DNA of 49,898 nt from the NCBI GenBank assembly GCA_052055015.1, contig JBQJIT010000029.1; one strand, written 5' to 3'. The notes beneath the pieces are model-generated. The model was not told the origin of the DNA and made no database searches. It worked only from the letters and a program-made list of their open reading frames with translations. Of this stretch, positions 18,687 through 25,258 are shown piece by piece. How positions within the stretch are numbered: the stretch's first letter is position 1; every line of letters starts with the position of its first letter. This DNA comes from Malassezia furfur. Its lineage: Eukaryota. The translations under genes and the position numbers were made by a program.

Positions 18687-18832
18687 GATGGAAGGAGTGG
18701 AAGTTGCCGTTCGCGACGCCCCGTCCGGCTCGCGCGCCAAGGCTTTACGCCCACCTTCCTAATGTTTAGTCATACGCGCGGCGCGGCGGGTCGCGCTGCC
18801 GCGGTGGCGAAGTGTTGTTCTGTTGCGACGCG

Positions 18833-21346
18833 ATGCGTCGGAGCGCGATCGCTGCGGTGCTGAGCGACCGCACGAATGAGCCCAAAGATGGTCAGGCACG
18901 CCAGCTTGCGAGTGGAGGTGGCTTCGGTCCGCTGCTAGGCCAGAAGCCGTTCAAGCCACCGACCGCGGCGCGGCGTGAAGGTGCGCTGGCCTCGTTGCGG
19001 AAACGCCCGCGCGTCAACTACGCGGGCATGGGTGACGACGACGAAAAAAAAACCGAGTCGTACCGAGAGCTCGAGGAGCCGCGGAAGAAGAGCTCGCTTG
19101 AGGGCGTGTACAAAGGCATTGACGCCTCCGGCGTGTCGCTCAATGCCGACCGACGCAAATGGGCTGTGTATCAGCCAAAACCCGACGCGCTCGGGCGTCG
19201 GTTCCTGGTGCCCACAATGCACAACCAGCGTGGCGAGACAATCGAGACGCGTATGAGCTATGCGGCGCTTGGCGTGCGCCGTCCCGTCGAAGTTCCGCCG
19301 CGGCCCTTGCATGACCCCATGGGCGAGCATGCGATTGTACTGTTTGATCCGACCATTGACGACAAGGAGCTCGAACGCGAGAAGGAACGCTTGCACCTGG
19401 CACAGCAGGAGCACGAACGGCAGCTCGAGCGCGCGTCGCACGGGCCGCACAAGCGGCTCGCATCAATCCTGGGTATCGACAAGCCCAAAGTCCAGCTCGA
19501 GGAGAAGGTACCTGTCGTGATCGACCCGCGTCTCGCCAAAATTCTCCGGCCGCATCAGGTCGAAGGTGTCAAATTCTTGTACCGATGCACCACCGGCATG
19601 GTGCAAGAGAATGCGCACGGGTGTATCATGGCCGACGAAATGGGCCTCGGCAAGACGCTGCAGTGCATTACGCTCATGTGGACATTGCTGCGACAGTCGC
19701 CGCGGGCCGGCAAGAGCACAATCCAAAAGTGCATTATTGTGTGTCCCTCAAGTTTGGTGCGCAACTGGGCGAACGAACTGGGTATGTTTGTATACTTACG
19801 CAGTGAAATGGCTGGGCAACGCTGCTCCAGGAACACTCGCACTCGACGGCAAGCTGAGCCGCGAGCAGATGTTTGAGACGGTGCAGCGCTGGTGCGAGAG
19901 TAGTGGACGCTCCATCTCGCACCCGGTCATGATTGTATCCTACGAGACGCTGCGCAATCTCCAGGAGCTGCTGGGTAATACCGAAGTTGGCCTCCTGCTC
20001 TGCGACGAGGGCCACCGCTTGAAGAATGCCGACTCTCTCACATTCCAGTCGCTCGACATGATCAAGGTGAAGCGCCGCGTGATTCTGTCCGGCACACCGA
20101 TCCAGAACGACCTGTCGGAGTACTTTTCGCTGATTAACTTCGCCATTCCCGATGTGCTCGGTAGCCGCGCCGAATTCCGCAAGCAATTTGAGCTGCACAT
20201 TCTGCGCGGGCGTGACGCGGACGCCACAGAACAGCAGCAGCAGCTTGGCCGCGAAAAGCTGCAGGAGCTCTCGGGGCTCGTAAGCCAGTTTATTATCCGG
20301 CGCACCAACGATATCCTGTCCAAGTACCTCCCGGTGAAGTACGAGCATGTGGTGTTCTGCAACTTGTCGCCCTTCCAGCTGTCGCTATACGACCTGTTTG
20401 TCAAGTCGCCCGCGATCAAGAAACTGTTGCGCGGTGTGGGATCACAGCCGCTCAAAGCGATCGGCATTCTCAAGAAGCTGTGCAACCACCCTGATCTGCT
20501 CGACCTGCCCGACGACCTAGAGGGTAGCGAGGAGCTCTTCCCAGAGGATTACAAGCCGCGCGATCGCCGCCACGTCGCTGTGCAGCTGTCGGGCAAGATG
20601 GCAGTGCTCGAGCGTTTCCTTACCACCATCCGCACGACAACCGACGACAAGATTGTGTTGATCAGCAACTATACCCAAACCCTCGACCTGTTTGAGCGTC
20701 TGTGCCGCACGAAGCGCTGGGGCTGCTTCCGTCTGGATGGCACGATGAATATCGGCAAACGCCAGCGACTCGTCGACCGCTTCAACGACCCAACATCCCC
20801 CGAGTTTGTGTTCCTGCTCAGCTCCAAGGCCGGCGGCTGCGGTCTTAACCTGATCGGCGCGAACCGCCTCGTGCTTTTTGACCCGGACTGGAATCCGGCA
20901 TCCGACCAGCAGGCCCTGGCACGCGTGTGGCGCGACGGACAGAAGAAGTCGTGCTTTGTCTACCGCTTCATTGCGACGGGCTCCATTGAGGAGAAGATTC
21001 TGCAGCGCCAGTCACACAAGCAGTCGCTCTCGTCGTGCGTCGTTGATGAGGCTTTGGACGCCGAGCGCCACTTTTCTGGTGAAGACCTGCGCGCCTTGTT
21101 CCAGTTCAAGAGCCAGACGCCCTGCGACACGCACGACACCTACAAGTGCCGCCGGTGTCGCGATGGGAAACAGCTCACCCCGGCGCCCGCGATGCTCTAT
21201 GGCGATACCAGCACGTACGTACGCCCCACTCACCCAGATGGAACCATTATACGCACGAGCACCTTGGTGAGCTGCACGACGACCTTCTGCGCGCCGAAAT
21301 TGTGCACCCCGACGTGTCGTACGTCTTCCAGTATTGTAGCCACTAG
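18833..21346 (+). CDS. RAD54: SNF2-family DNA translocase Rad54; 3 exons
   Basis: PPRPLHDP, LRPHQVEG, ADEMGLGKT, DEGHRLKN, SGTPIQND and QALARVWRDGQ. Introns at 19782-19803 (22 nt) and 21215-21237 (23 nt) give 822 aa. Confidence 0.95.
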
Positions 21347-21398
21347 ATGAAATCGGGCCCGATCGCTTCACCCGCGCCGTCCGCACGCATCCCCAGGC

Positions 21399-22884
21399 AT
21401 GAGCGATGCGGAGCTGCCGATCGAGACGTTCCTCAAAGCGCAGCCGCGCACGGTACTGAATCGCTTGTACGAGAAGCCAGCGAGCTGTTTGGCCGTGTTC
21501 CGGTAGGTTTTGTTTGCCCTCTCACACAGTCTCTTGCCAATGGTCGCGCGTCAGATCATTCTCAACATACTATTCCTCGACGGGCCACTGACCATCGAAG
21601 ACTGTCTCAAGTTCTTCCAGAAGCGCAACACAACGTGCGTATTAGGCTAACGCAGCGAACACGAAATCCCGCTCGAGCGCATGGAAGGGTTGTCGATCGT
21701 CAAGCTCCGTGCCGACAAGCTCCATCTGAACGACATCTTTCGCAAGGGCATCGTCGGCGCATTGAATGGGAGGTACGCGTGCACGGCTCACGCAGCGGCG
21801 ACTATCACTCTTTCGGCACGCCGTGCAGTGGAAAAGAACACGAAAAGGTCGGCATCGAGTTCCTTGACTCGTACGCTAGGACCCAGTGGGAGACGATCCT
21901 CTACTTCATGGTCGGCAGCGAGCAGTCCACGCCGCCACGTAACACAGTACTTTTTCTCCTGCAGCGCGCTGGACTAATGCAACGCGATGCAAACGATGCA
22001 CGGCAACTCAACATTACGTCTGCAGGCTTCCAGTTTCTACTCCAGGATGTCAACTCACAGCTTTGGGCGCTTTTGTTACAATACCTGCGCATGGCCGAAG
22101 AGCGTAACATGGATCTGGTTGAGGTGCTCGCCTTCTTTTTTACAGTTGGTGGTCTTGAATTCGGACGTGCCTACGAGACCCGTGGCTTCTCGCTGACCCA
22201 AATGCAGACGCTCGAAGAGCTGAGCGATTACGGACTCGTGTATCGGACGAGTAAATCCGCCAAGTACTTCTTCCCGACGCGCTTGGCGGCAACGCTGACC
22301 TCGACGGCCACCTCAGCACTGTCTACCCTCGATGACCAGGAGGAGCAGGGCTACCTCATTCTTGAGACAAACTATCGCGTTTATGCTTATACCTGTACGC
22401 ACTGTCGTCTGACTCAGCCAACCTGCTACGCATCGCGATTCTCAACCTCTTTGTCACACTCAAGGAGCGCCTGCCCAATCTCGTAGTGGGGCAACTGACG
22501 CGCGAGAGCGTCAAGTCGGCACTGAACAAAGGCATCACCGCCAACCAAGTCATCGCCTACCTCACCCATCACGCCCATCCCCAAATGCACAAAAACGTAT
22601 GTCTTCCGCTCACGCAGGACCCGCTGCTCCCTGCGACTGTTTCGGACCAAATTCGGCTCTGGGAGCGCGAAAAGAATCGCGTTGCCACCTGCGTTGGTAC
22701 GCCGCCCACTGACCCAGGCAACCTGTATACCGAGTTCACCTCCATCCACGACTACGAGCAAGTGCGCGACTATGCCAAGAGCCTCGGGGTGCTGCAGTGG
22801 GAAAGCGAGGCAAAACGCATGCTCTTCGTTACCTCTGAGGGGCACGAAAGCGTGCGCGAGTTTATTCAACGACGGAGGGTATAA
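21399..22884 (+). CDS. TFB2: TFIIH core subunit Tfb2/p52; 7 exons
   Basis: LYEKPASCLAVFR, QWETILYFMV, ITSAGFQFLL, FFPTRLA, ILETNYRVYAYT and DQIRLWERE. Introns at 21503-21529, 21635-21655, 21773-21795, 22395-22417, 22597-22617 and 22697-22717 (27, 21, 23, 23, 21, 21 nt) give 449 aa. Confidence 0.92.
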
Positions 22885-22925
22885 GCCTACACAGGCTACG
22901 AGAATCCAACAGATTTATACATAGG

Positions 22926-24883
22926 TTAGGCAGGAGGGAACCCACGGCCGGGGATGACCTTAACAGACCGGTATGAGTGTGGCTGGATCAACGGGCTTCC
23001 GTTCATCCGCCACTCTCGTCCGGCACCACCGCTCCCAAAGCGCCATGTTTGTTCGCGGCCCAATAAGGCGAGGGCCGTCTCAAAGAACCACTCCTCCTTC
23101 TTGCAGTAATGGACAACGATAGTGCCTCCCACTTTGTGGTCGCGATAACGCTGATTCGCCAGCGCATCATTAAACGGTGCATATGTAGCGCCATATGGGT
23201 TCGCCGTCGGAACATACGACGGGTGTCTTGGAGAAGCCATCTCCAGCGAGCAGTTGGGATACAAGGCAAGCCCACTTTTGCCCAGTACCTCGACCGCCTC
23301 CTTTGGCCGGGACATGGCACCACTTGCGGGATATAGACGCGGGTCGTCGGCTGCAAACACCATGGTGTCGTGTGAGAACATCCGTTGGGTGTCTTCGTCA
23401 TCATCTTGGCGATACCAAGTGGATACCCAGCGTCCTCCGCCCTCCACGAGTGCCTCGACGGTCTCCTCCGCTGAGAGGTCGGGACGCGGCGGCTTGTAAG
23501 GCACCTTCCACTGGCTTGTCGTGGAGAAGGATTGCGCAGCATGTAGTCCGCCGCGGCGCTTCAGTTCTTCCGCACTGAGGCCGCGATGCATCTCGCCGCG
23601 AATTTCATCCACGTGATCCGGGAATAAGAAACCGTGCGCGTACGGTGTCCAACTGCGGGGGTGGTCGTAGATCCAGCAGTTCTCCGCGGCCCATTGCACG
23701 TCCTGTGCATGCGGGTGCATTTTGATCCACTTGGTCATTTTGGTGTCCTCTTTTCCGCCCCAGTCCTTGGCGATTTCCTTGGAGCTGGCAAGGTACTGCA
23801 CCAGGTCGTGCGAAAGTGCATAGGCTTCGCCTGCCATAAACTGGCCACGAACCAGGTCTGTCGTTAGTCGGATACCTCGCGTCTGTACATACAGCCCCAA
23901 TACAGCATCTTGCGCGGCAACGCGCGCAAGCGGTGCTCCAGTTCATCCAACACAATGAAGCTGTCGTCGTCCGCCTTGACGACGTAGTCGGCCAGCTTCC
24001 AGTGCACATCGTACTGACCTTCCAGCGTGGGCGCGCCAATAAGACCGCCCTTGGCACGCGGGACCAGAACTGGCACGGTGCCGTTCTCAGCGGCCCATTG
24101 GAAGAAAGTATAGGTTTTGTGGCTGTTGCCCGTCTCTTTAATGTCGAGAATGACCAAGTCATTGTACGTTTCCATCTCCATCGCGACACGATGCGCGTAC
24201 TTCTTGCGTGGGCGACCCAATACAAACTTGACTTGCACATTGCCGAGCGGGCGGCCCGACTGGGGGTCGCGCGGCGCCGTCATTGTCGCGTACGTCTGAC
24301 GGATAGTCTGGCGTCGTTCAAACGCCTGGTCGTAGCTCATCACACCAACAAGTACATCCACGGGTGCCAAGTGGTCAATGTCGGCATACGAAAACGGCCG
24401 CTGCTCTGCACAGACGGTGCGCCAGGGCATGCGCTCCTTGTCCGGATCCAGAATGTACTTGATGGTAAGCCCGGTGAAGACGCCAAAGGCAAGCACACCT
24501 AGGATACCAAAGAAGGAAAGAATAGGTCGGTTCTGGATGTAATAGAGCAGGTTGCGCATCCAAATAGAAAAGTACACCATCGCACGGTGCCGACGCGTGC
24601 GGTGTTGTCCATCGTGCGGGTGTGATCGCATTTTGGACATTGATCGGAACGTGCGCGCTTCAAAAGTGTCTTCCTCGGGAATTTGCTCATCCACGTACGG
24701 AATGTCAGTCGGGTGTGTAGCGGGATTGTATTGAGGAAGCCATGCGCCCGACTGGGGCATCAATGGCTGTTGAGAAGGGTCCATGTCTTTTTTTTGTAAC
24801 GAAGAGCGTCGCGCCAGCGAAACACCGAGCCGCGAATTCGCTCTCCTGTAACGCTCCTGCGCGGCGGGGCCAGAAGGTGCCAT
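22926..24883 (-). CDS. GT31-family beta-1,3-glycosyltransferase, type II membrane protein; 2 exons
   Basis: A single TM helix, then RRQTIRQT, FVLG, YVVKADDDSF (DxD), YWG|YLV, FMAGEAYALS and KEDT. 35-nt intron at 23858-23892. The start could be the ATG at 24784. Confidence 0.85.
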
Positions 24884-25258
24884 GTTTGCGTGCTTTTAAT
24901 TCTTGCGCAAATAGCCTTCTCAACTAGCTCAGCATAGCCGCGTGCACTTTGGCTGCACGTAATAAGAGGAGCAATGCACGCGCGCCAAACTCCACGTGGT
25001 GCGCGAGACTCAGACGGCGCACTACTCCAGCACCGAGCACACAGGGCCGCGGCCGCGAGGGTATCACGTGAACAGCAACTGCGCTGCCCTGATCGGCGCT
25101 TGTTCTCTGCACTGCGCAATGAGGCGGTGGGGCGGGCGCTTACCTAATTTGGAGTTCAACCGAGCAGTGCCCGCAGGACCCGTAGACTGTCCGTGCGCTG
25201 GCGGGAGCAGGCTGCATATGGCCGTGTGCTACTTTCCTACAACCAACACCGCTACATC

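What the first reader, a model, noticed from the sequence alone, without database searches (positions are those of the whole stretch)
21399..22884. TFB2 has six micro-introns totalling 136 nt
An essential TFIIH gene is split by introns of 27, 21, 23, 23, 21 and 21 nt. Intron 2 (GTGCGTATTAGGCTAACGCAG, 21635-21655) contains an in-frame TAA, so this 21-mer must be excised to make the protein. That is the best internal evidence that 21-nt introns are real. The gene looks intron-rich but miniaturised, meaning introns were shrunk rather than lost (inference).
Basis: seen in the sequence. Interest (0 to 1): 0.7.

Follow-up and report, generated by a model that had tools for sequence, protein, structure and literature searches.

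The report
Six tiny introns in yeast TFB2
This is a normal TFB2 (TFIIH p52) gene of a Malassezia skin-yeast relative, interrupted by six genuine-looking 21-27-base introns; such miniature introns are a known hallmark of the genus, so it is a clean example, not a surprise.

Summary
Window 21399-22884 (+) has six GT...CTNAC..AG segments of 27, 21, 23, 23, 21 and 21 nt. Removing them gives a 449-aa protein. It aligns with 13 TFB2 homologs with no gap at any junction and covers Pfam Tfb2 and Tfb2_C collinearly.

The window is nuclear DNA of a Malassezia-like yeast (72-81% protein identity to named Malassezia TFB2s). Three other Malassezia-like lineages in metagenome contigs have introns at the same codons and phases, or lack them by exact deletions. 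One lineage lacks introns 2-5.

Five of the six positions recur, same codon and phase, in distant fungus-like TFB2 genes as 65-206-nt introns. So these are old introns that shrank. Other old introns are absent here, so loss happened too.

The trait runs through the whole window: 42 motif candidates of 30 nt or less against 6.3 +/- 3.0 in shuffles. It is published for the genus: mean 30 bp in M. sympodialis, with 99% of introns RNA-seq supported (PMC5389616).

No RNA data could be reached for this organism. Verdict: real, ordinary for the genus, modest interest.

The parts
21399..22884 (+). TFB2 / TFIIH p52 gene, ATG to stop; 7 exons, 6 introns; 449 aa after splicing
   Evidence: splice and translate; Pfam Tfb2 and Tfb2_C, exon by exon, collinear; homologs; yeast TFB2 E 3.8e-44, human GTF2H4 about 1e-39 in PDB
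21399..21502 (+). Exon 1 (104 nt), ends in phase 2 inside the Arg35 codon
   Evidence: Pfam Tfb2 profile positions 2-25; third-position-biased divergence 4/2/25 against L001
21503..21529 (+). Intron 1, 27 nt, GTAGGT...CTCAC-AC-AG; in-frame TAG if retained
   Evidence: Present at the same codon and phase in L001 (43 nt), L004 (41) and L005 (31). Present in 6 of 10 outgroup loci as 58-206 nt
21530..21634 (+). Exon 2 (105 nt)
   Evidence: Pfam Tfb2 positions 27-58
21635..21655 (+). Intron 2, 21 nt, GTGCGT...CTAAC-GC-AG; in-frame TAA at 21648-21650
   Evidence: Orthologous introns of 36 nt (L004) and 24 nt (L005); absent from L001. The outgroup match is only tentative (L052, L056, weak scores)
21656..21772 (+). 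Exon 3 (117 nt)
   Evidence: gapless alignment to homologs; codon-position bias
21773..21795 (+). Intron 3, 23 nt, GTACGC...CTCAC-GC-AG; frameshift if retained
   Evidence: 27 nt in L004; absent in L001 and L005. Same codon and phase in L023, L036, L056, L065 as 65-112 nt
21796..22394 (+). Exon 4 (599 nt), core of the Tfb2 domain
   Evidence: Pfam Tfb2 E 1.3e-69, profile 108-303; PDB hits
22395..22417 (+). Intron 4, 23 nt, GTACGC...CTGAC-TC-AG; frameshift if retained
   Evidence: 24 nt in L005; absent in L001 and L004. Same codon and phase in L038 as 98 nt
22418..22596 (+). Exon 5 (179 nt)
   Evidence: Pfam Tfb2 profile 307-358, E 2.4e-23
22597..22617 (+). Intron 5, 21 nt, GTATGT...CTCAC-GC-AG; phase 0, stop-free in frame (retention would add 7 aa)
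   Evidence: 30 nt in L004, 24 nt in L005, absent in L001. Same position and phase in L037 as 70 nt. No homolog has the 7-aa insert
22618..22696 (+). Exon 6 (79 nt)
   Evidence: Pfam Tfb2_C profile 1-15
22697..22717 (+). Intron 6, 21 nt, GTACGC...CTGAC-CC-AG; phase 1, stop-free in frame
   Evidence: 28, 41 and 25 nt in L001, L004, L005; none of the three is a multiple of 3, so they must be removed there. Same codon and phase in L058 (92 nt) and L065 (77 nt)
22718..22884 (+). Exon 7 (167 nt including the TAA stop)
   Evidence: Pfam Tfb2_C profile 20-68, E 2.9e-17
18770..21346 (+). Upstream RAD54-like gene (context); its stop ends 52 nt before the TFB2 ATG; it has micro-introns at 19782-19803 (22 nt) and 21215-21237 (23 nt)
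   Evidence: Pfam Rad54_N, SNF2-rel_dom, Helicase_C; intron presence and absence in relatives

Best explanation
The segment is the single-copy-type TFB2 (TFIIH p52) gene of a Malassezia-like basidiomycete yeast. It carries six ordinary U2-type (GT-AG) spliceosomal introns miniaturised to 21-27 nt.

Each intron holds little beyond the three signals the spliceosome needs:
- a 6-nt 5' splice site (GTRNGY);
- a 6-12-nt spacer;
- a CTNAC branch box whose A lies 5 nt before the 3' splice junction (CTNAC + 2 nt + AG in all six).

Splicing all six gives a 449-aa protein collinear with TFB2 of other fungi.

The introns sit at ancient positions that hold 65-206-nt introns in distant fungi. They were shortened in a lineage undergoing general genome compaction; neighbouring genes here lie 40-50 nt apart. 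Other ancestral introns were deleted outright.

Shown: the sequence anatomy, the restored ORF, homolog collinearity, orthologous intron presence/absence in relatives, and position and phase conservation. Inferred: actual excision in RNA, use of the CTNAC adenosine as the branch point, and the direction of the size change.
For: 1. Splicing restores a 1350-nt ORF. The unspliced reading has a TAG (intron 1), a TAA (intron 2) and two frameshifts (introns 3, 4).

2. Exon-wise Pfam hits are collinear and abut at the junctions: Tfb2 profile positions 2-25, 27-58, 108-303 and 307-358; Tfb2_C 1-15 and 20-68.

3. In an alignment with 13 full-length homologs (3 Malassezia, 5 Ustilaginomycotina, 5 more distant fungi), 0 of 6 junction codons touch a gap column. 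No homolog has the 7-9 residues that retention would add.

4. Gene models for three other Malassezia-like lineages (L001, L004, L005) are all open. Their introns sit at the same codon and phase, with these lengths:
- window 27/21/23/23/21/21
- L001 43/-/-/-/-/28
- L004 41/36/27/-/30/41
- L005 31/24/-/24/24/25
The four proteins align with 2 gap columns, neither at a junction. Exact absence in a relative marks the intron boundaries.

5. Intron columns keep only the splice signals. Exons diverge mostly at third codon positions, for example exon 4 at 39/21/128.

6. The same position and phase occur in outgroup loci (10 examined): intron 1 in 6 loci; intron 3 in 4; intron 4 in 1 (L038); intron 5 in 1 (L037); intron 6 in 2 (L058, L065); intron 2 in 2, but with weak scores.

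7. The motif is enriched across the window: 42 candidates against 6.3 +/- 3.0 in shuffles.

8. Published annotations agree:
- M. sympodialis curated set: 5350 introns, mean 30 bp, 99% RNA-seq supported (PMC5389616, passages and Table 2).
- M. restricta: intron length average/median 37.2/30.0 (PMC9241646 Table 1).
- M. restricta annotation needed minimum-intron settings of 15-20 (PMC6473144).
Against: - There is no RNA-level evidence for this organism.
- Introns 5 and 6 are 3n and stop-free, so the reading frame does not demand their removal. For them the case rests on splice motifs, homolog collinearity and relatives.
- The outgroup match for intron 2 lies in a poorly conserved stretch, and its best score barely beats the runner-up (44 against 40 in L052; 25 in L056).
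- The ORF-joining filter is weak in a 62% GC genome, where wrong frames stay open for hundreds of codons. It even picked a wrong frame for TFB2 introns 1 and 2.
- The branch-point assignment rests on consensus only.
- The direction 'shrunk' assumes that the outgroup lengths are closer to the ancestral state.
Confidence: 0.9

Rival explanations
1. Only introns 1-4 are obligatorily spliced. The two stop-free 21-nt segments (22597-22617, 22697-22717) are partly or wholly retained and translated as 7-residue insertions, giving isoforms of up to 463 aa.
For: Both are multiples of 3 with no in-frame stop. A model that keeps them is fully open (464 codons with the stop). Retention would escape nonsense-mediated decay (inference).
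Against: - Both carry complete GTRNGY...CTNAC-NN-AG signals, identical in layout to introns 1-4.
- 0 of 13 homologs has an insertion at either site, and both sites lie in highly conserved stretches (MHKN|DPLLP, and G of VGNLY).
- L001 lacks segment 5 exactly.
- The orthologs of segment 6 are 28, 41 and 25 nt, which cannot be read through in frame.
Confidence: 0.06
2. Translation starts at ATG 21681, so the region 21399-21680 is 5' UTR and introns 1-2 are irrelevant to the protein.
For: An in-frame ATG exists at 21681 (Met in ...LERMEGL...). At least one public relative's model (P0004) lacks the N-terminal exons.
Against: - Exons 1-2 match Pfam Tfb2 profile positions 2-58.
- They encode the block LYEKPASCLAVFRLLP, which is near-invariant in 13 homologs.
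- They diverge among four lineages mainly at third codon positions: exon 1 4/2/25, exon 2 12/8/25 against L001.
- The truncated public model is also fused with RAD54 and mis-spliced elsewhere.
Confidence: 0.02
3. The interruptions are assembly or sequencing errors, or the locus is a decaying pseudogene, and are not introns.
For: There are stops and frameshifts in the raw frame.
Against: - Each interruption is a discrete block with full splice signals.
- Independent metagenome assemblies of three other lineages show blocks at the same codons.
- Exons are under codon-level constraint.
- The same kind of block is enriched about 7-fold across the window.
Confidence: 0.01

Closest known systems
Short introns of annotated Malassezia genomes (M. 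sympodialis curated annotation, PMC5389616; M. restricta / M. arunalokei, PMC6473144 and PMC9241646)
   Same: Same genus-level lineage (72-81% TFB2 identity). Same compact gene spacing. Canonical GT-AG introns of a few tens of bases. L005-L008 match an M. sympodialis entry at 99-100% in unbroken segments and carry orthologous introns of 24-31 nt.
   Different: Published figures are a mean of 30 bp and a median of 30 bp. In this window the length mode is 21-23 nt. At each orthologous TFB2 site the window intron is the shortest of the lineages that carry one (2-4 per site). In the passages I read I saw no published description of the fixed branch-to-3' splice site spacing; the figure with the length distribution (Fig. 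S8 of PMC5389616) is a picture I could not read.
Ultra-short introns of ciliates (Paramecium, about 25 nt; PMC8997360 and PMC5014332, abstracts in search listings only), microsporidia and dicyemids (listed in PMC13644364, passage read). Recalled only, from no call: Bigelowiella nucleomorph 18-21 nt and Stentor 15 nt.
   Same: Spliceosomal GT-AG introns near 20-27 nt with almost no sequence beyond the splice signals.
   Different: This is an independent origin in a free-growing basidiomycete yeast with a GC-rich genome (0.62) and an explicit fungal CTNAY branch box. The passage on introns under 30 bp that I read in PMC13644364 does not list Malassezia, and the word does not occur in that paper.
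S. cerevisiae Tfb2 / human GTF2H4 (p52), subunit of the TFIIH core
   Same: Pfam Tfb2 and Tfb2_C domains in the same order. PDB chains of yeast TFB2 (E 3.8e-44) and human p52 (about 1e-39) match exon 4. The length of 449 aa is close to the 462 aa of the human chain listed.
   Different: The protein shows nothing unusual. It has a shorter N-terminus than the Ustilaginales homologs, which carry about 40 extra residues.

Membership tests
TFB2 / p52 (TFIIH core subunit) | Pfam Tfb2 domain (PF03849) covering most of the protein | tested here: met
   Exons 1, 2, 4 and 5 hit profile positions 2-25, 27-58, 108-303 and 307-358 of 358. Exon 4 alone scores E 1.3e-69. Exon 3 alone gave no hit.
TFB2 / p52 (TFIIH core subunit) | C-terminal Tfb2_C domain (PF18307) | tested here: met
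   Exons 6 and 7 hit profile positions 1-15 and 20-68 of 68, with E 2e-05 and 2.9e-17.
TFB2 / p52 (TFIIH core subunit) | Full-length collinearity with characterised TFB2/p52 | tested here: met
   Gap-free junctions against 13 homologs. 449 of 449 residues align with P0007 without gaps. Yeast and human TFIIH chains match in the PDB.
TFB2 / p52 (TFIIH core subunit) | Function in TFIIH (binding of XPB/Ssl2 and p8/Tfb5) | not tested
   No complex prediction or experiment was run. Function is inferred from orthology.
U2-type (GT-AG) spliceosomal intron | GT...AG termini with an extended 5' splice site consensus | tested here: met
   6 of 6 start with GTRNGY and end with CAG.
U2-type (GT-AG) spliceosomal intron | Branch-point consensus (fungal CTRAY-like) upstream of the 3' splice site | tested here: met
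   6 of 6 have CTNAC followed by 2 nt and AG. The same layout holds in 35 of 41 window candidates, with the branch A 5-6 nt from the 3' end. Actual branch use was not shown.
U2-type (GT-AG) spliceosomal intron | Removal restores a conserved reading frame | tested here: met
   The frame requires removal for introns 1-4. For introns 5-6 the case rests on homology only.
U2-type (GT-AG) spliceosomal intron | Orthologous position and phase in related genes, with presence/absence polymorphism by exact deletion | tested here: met
   three Malassezia-like lineages; outgroups; intron 2 tentative only.
U2-type (GT-AG) spliceosomal intron | Excision seen in RNA (spliced reads, cDNA, lariat) | not testable with these tools
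The only support is indirect: 99% RNA-seq support for the M. sympodialis intron set as a whole (PMC5389616).

The most novel reading that the evidence does not exclude
This Malassezia lineage may have pushed U2-type introns to a hard floor of about 21 nt with a rigid layout: a 6-nt 5' splice site, a 5-8-nt spacer, a CTNAY box, the branch A only 5 nt from the 3' junction and about 15 nt from the 5' junction, and no room for a polypyrimidine tract.

That is shorter than the published Malassezia averages of about 30 bp and lies in the range of ciliates and nucleomorphs. U1 and U2 snRNPs could hardly sit on such an intron side by side. A culturable, transformable fungus might then serve as a model for how a near-canonical spliceosome handles minimal substrates.

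Four searches found no paper on this.
Probability: 0.4. Interest if true: 0.5.

Novelty: new member of a known kind. Interest (0 to 1): 0.3.

Why it matters
1. Annotation. Micro-introns and 40-50-nt gene spacing defeat automatic gene callers. Four of the six named Malassezia entries found for this locus fuse RAD54 with TFB2 or drop exons. The locus makes a good test case for annotation pipelines.

2. Intron evolution. One gene shows ancient intron positions kept but shrunk three- to ten-fold, next to frequent exact intron loss among sister lineages. This gives a compact data set on how genome streamlining acts on introns.

3. Splicing mechanism. If the 21-nt class with a 5-nt branch-to-3' splice site distance is confirmed in RNA, it adds a fungal, genetically tractable case to the short list of organisms with introns under 25 nt.

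None of this changes what is known about TFB2 itself.

Tried and rejected
- Whole-genome search for a second TFB2 copy, snRNAs or U2AF: no genome is held.
- Rfam scan of the window for snRNA or snoRNA genes: 0 matches.
- Earlier findings of this scan: nothing for this genome. The word search returned only unrelated group I or archaeal intron notes; none was used.
- ORF-joining test as a validator of all window candidates: judged too weak in a 62% GC genome. It chose a wrong frame for TFB2 introns 1-2, so I use it only for length and spacing tallies.
- A 17-nt candidate at 24290-24306 (+): rejected as chance, because that stretch is coding on the minus strand (galactosyltransferase-like ORF).
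- The depth-first intron-set search also returned models with extra in-frame 48-60-nt 'introns' inside conserved exons. I rejected these because they delete conserved residues. For L004 the correct five-intron set was not among the six solutions printed; it was verified separately.
- The intron-length distribution of M. sympodialis (Fig. S8 of PMC5389616) is a picture, so no numbers could be read.
- A RAD54-TFB2 read-through fusion as a real product: rejected. RAD54 has its own stop at 21344-21346, and the TFB2 N-terminus aligns from Met1 with stand-alone homologs.

Full report
**What is there.**
The stretch 21399-22884 on the + strand starts with ATG and ends with TAA.
- Each block begins with GTRNGY.
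- Each ends with CTNAC, two bases and AG. If that A is the branch point, it lies 5 nt before the 3' junction in all six.
- Removing the blocks gives a 1350-nt ORF of 449 codons plus the stop.

Introns 5 and 6 are different. They are 21 nt and have no in-frame stop, so a model that keeps them is also open (464 codons). The reading frame proves nothing for these two.

**Identity of the gene and the organism.**
Exon-by-exon Pfam hits are collinear and abut at the junctions:
- Tfb2 profile positions 2-25, 27-58, 108-303 and 307-358;
- Tfb2_C positions 1-15 and 20-68.

Exon 4 finds 216 proteins at E <= 1e-10. The top seven are Malassezia or Malassezia-like (69-84% identity over exon 4). Next come Ustilaginomycotina at 55-60%. 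The spliced protein is 72-81% identical over its full length to Malassezia TFB2 entries. It matches yeast TFB2 and human p52 chains of solved TFIIH structures. The window has 62% G+C. No entry is identical, so the species is not among the annotated ones returned.

**Are the six blocks introns?**
Comparative evidence is strong.

1. In an alignment with 13 full-length homologs, no junction codon touches a gap column, and no homolog has the 7-9 residues that retention would add.

2. A metagenome scan gave 80 loci. L001-L003, L004 and L005-L008 are three further Malassezia-like lineages. Their gene models are all open, and their introns fall on the same codons and phases:

| Lineage | Intron 1 | 2 | 3 | 4 | 5 | 6 |
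|---|---|---|---|---|---|---|
| window | 27 | 21 | 23 | 23 | 21 | 21 |
| L001 | 43 | - | - | - | - | 28 |
| L004 | 41 | 36 | 27 | - | 30 | 41 |
| L005 | 31 | 24 | - | 24 | 24 | 25 |

The four proteins align with two gap columns, neither at a junction. Where a relative lacks an intron, the deletion coincides with the predicted boundaries. L001 in effect supplies a natural 'cDNA' for introns 2-5. Intron 6 is 28, 41 and 25 nt in the relatives. None of these is a multiple of three, so it must be removed there.

3. Between lineages the exons differ mostly at third codon positions. Examples are exon 1 at 4/2/25 and exon 4 at 39/21/128 differences at codon positions 1/2/3 against L001. Intron columns keep little more than the splice signals.

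Exons 1-3 are under coding constraint and carry the near-invariant LYEKPASCLAVFRLLP block.

**More than chance, and not special to TFB2.**
The motif GTRNGY..CTNAY..YAG at 30 nt or less occurs 42 times in the window, against 6.26 +/- 3.02 in 50 dinucleotide-preserving shuffles. Merging nested hits leaves 44 distinct 3' ends.
- Lengths peak at 23 nt (10 cases) and 21 nt (5 cases).
- The branch A lies 5 nt (24 of 41) or 6 nt (11 of 41) from the 3' end, although 4-10 nt was allowed.
- The loose ORF filter used there is weak in a GC-rich genome, so I use it only for these tallies.
- A 17-nt candidate at 24290-24306 lies antisense to a galactosyltransferase-like ORF and is probably chance. The shortest credible class is therefore 21 nt.
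- The upstream RAD54-like gene has the same kind of introns at 19782-19803 and 21215-21237.

**Shrunk or lost?**
I placed introns in 10 more distant, fungus-like TFB2 loci. For each break I chose the GT-AG pair that best restores the alignment to the closest protein. Sharing of the window's intron positions, same codon and phase, was as follows:

| Window intron | Outgroup loci sharing it | Outgroup intron length |
|---|---|---|
| 1 | L036, L037, L038, L052, L057, L058 | 58-206 nt |
| 2 | L052, L056 (tentative) | 145 and 106 nt |
| 3 | L023, L036, L056, L065 | 65-112 nt |
| 4 | L038 | 98 nt |
| 5 | L037 | 70 nt |
| 6 | L058, L065 | 92 and 77 nt |

The intron 2 match lies in a poorly conserved stretch and the scores are weak. 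The retained introns are therefore old and have been shortened about three- to ten-fold.

The same outgroups also have introns at window residues 142, 173/175, 180, 215, 234, 262, 353 and 380. Residue 353 is occupied in 7 of 10 loci. None of these exists here, and sister lineages lack one to four of the six. Miniaturisation and outright loss both occurred, so 'shrunk rather than lost' is only half right.

**How it most likely works.**
These are canonical U2-type introns reduced to their signals. In a 21-nt intron the 5' splice-site hexamer and the branch box are 6 nt apart, and the 3' AG follows the branch A by 5 nt. There is no room for a polypyrimidine tract. The simplest reading is that the first AG after the branch is used. 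These steps are inferred from consensus, not shown.

How U1 and U2 particles could occupy such an intron together is an open mechanistic question. The same question applies to the roughly 25-nt introns of ciliates (PMC8997360 and PMC5014332; abstracts in search listings only).

**What is known.**
- A review says Malassezia genes contain 'very short introns' (PMC7426719, one passage).
- The curated M. sympodialis annotation has 5350 introns with a mean of 30 bp, 99% supported by RNA-seq (PMC5389616, passages and Table 2). Its Fig. S8 is a picture and unreadable.
- M. restricta has an intron average/median of 37.2/30.0 nt (PMC9241646 Table 1).
- Annotating M. restricta needed minimum-intron settings of 15-20 (PMC6473144).

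The phenomenon is therefore published at genus level, and this gene is a new instance of it.

Some things I did not find. Four searches turned up no study of splicing signals or mechanism in Malassezia. A 2026 paper on introns under 30 bp names ciliates, microsporidia and dicyemids in the passage I read; the word Malassezia does not occur in that paper (PMC13644364). Broad fungal intron surveys treat Malassezia as intron-poor, for example 0.20 introns per kb for M. globosa (bioRxiv 10.1101/2020.08.11.247098; PMC8476143). By simple arithmetic this gene has 4.4 introns per kb.

**Limits.**
- No RNA data for this organism could be reached.
- No whole genome is held, so copy number, snRNAs and splicing factors were not examined.
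- Rfam found nothing in the window.
- The earlier-findings index had nothing relevant.

**Verdict.**
Novelty: a new member of a known kind. Interest is modest (0.3). The bolder reading is a 21-nt floor with a rigid layout in this particular lineage, undescribed as far as my searches reach. It needs transcriptome data.

Noticed in passing
window 21344-21401 and 22882-22928: Extreme gene packing. The RAD54-like stop ends at 21346 and the TFB2 ATG is at 21399, leaving 52 nt. In L001, L004 and L005 the alignment shows a visibly longer spacer. The convergent downstream ORF on the minus strand ends at about 22926, some 41 nt after the TFB2 stop. Promoter and UTR sequences must overlap the neighbouring genes.
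   Followed up: partly
proteins P0001, P0003, P0004, P0006: Four of the six named Malassezia database entries for this locus are fused RAD54-TFB2 gene models of 871-1245 aa. Some also have dropped or mis-spliced TFB2 exons; for example P0004 lacks exons 1-2 and P0001 lacks YEKPASCLAVFR. These look like annotation artefacts caused by micro-introns and tiny intergenic spacers.
   Followed up: partly
window 19782-19803 and 21215-21237 (+), RAD54-like gene: There are two more micro-introns. The 22-nt one is present only in the window and is an exact 22-nt gap in L001, L004 and L005. The 23-nt one is shared with L005 (25 nt) and absent in L001 and L004. Relatives carry 24-nt and 43-nt insertions, at window positions 20884 and 20952, that the window lacks. 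Intron presence/absence turnover among Malassezia lineages looks frequent.
   Followed up: partly
window 22597-22617 and 22697-22717: Two of the six TFB2 introns are 3n and stop-free, so retention would escape nonsense-mediated decay. Across the window, 13 of 41 candidates are 3n. I did not test whether 3n stop-free introns are depleted, as reported for Paramecium (recalled, from no call).
   Followed up: no
window 21347-22486 (+): A 379-codon open frame overlaps TFB2 in a wrong frame. This is typical of 62% GC DNA and a trap for ORF-based gene calling. It misled my own ORF-joining heuristic for introns 1-2.
   Followed up: yes
window 24290-24306 (+): A 17-nt GTACGT-CTGAC-GGATAG motif match lies antisense to a galactosyltransferase-like ORF (23867-24895, minus strand; Pfam Galactosyl_T E 2.3e-08). 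It is most likely a chance match, not a 17-nt intron.
   Followed up: partly
window-wide candidates: The commonest 5' splice site here is GTACGY, with C at position +4, not the GTAAGT/GTATGT recalled as typical of fungi. Whether U1 snRNA carries a compensating change could not be checked, because no genome is held and no snRNA lies in the window.
   Followed up: no
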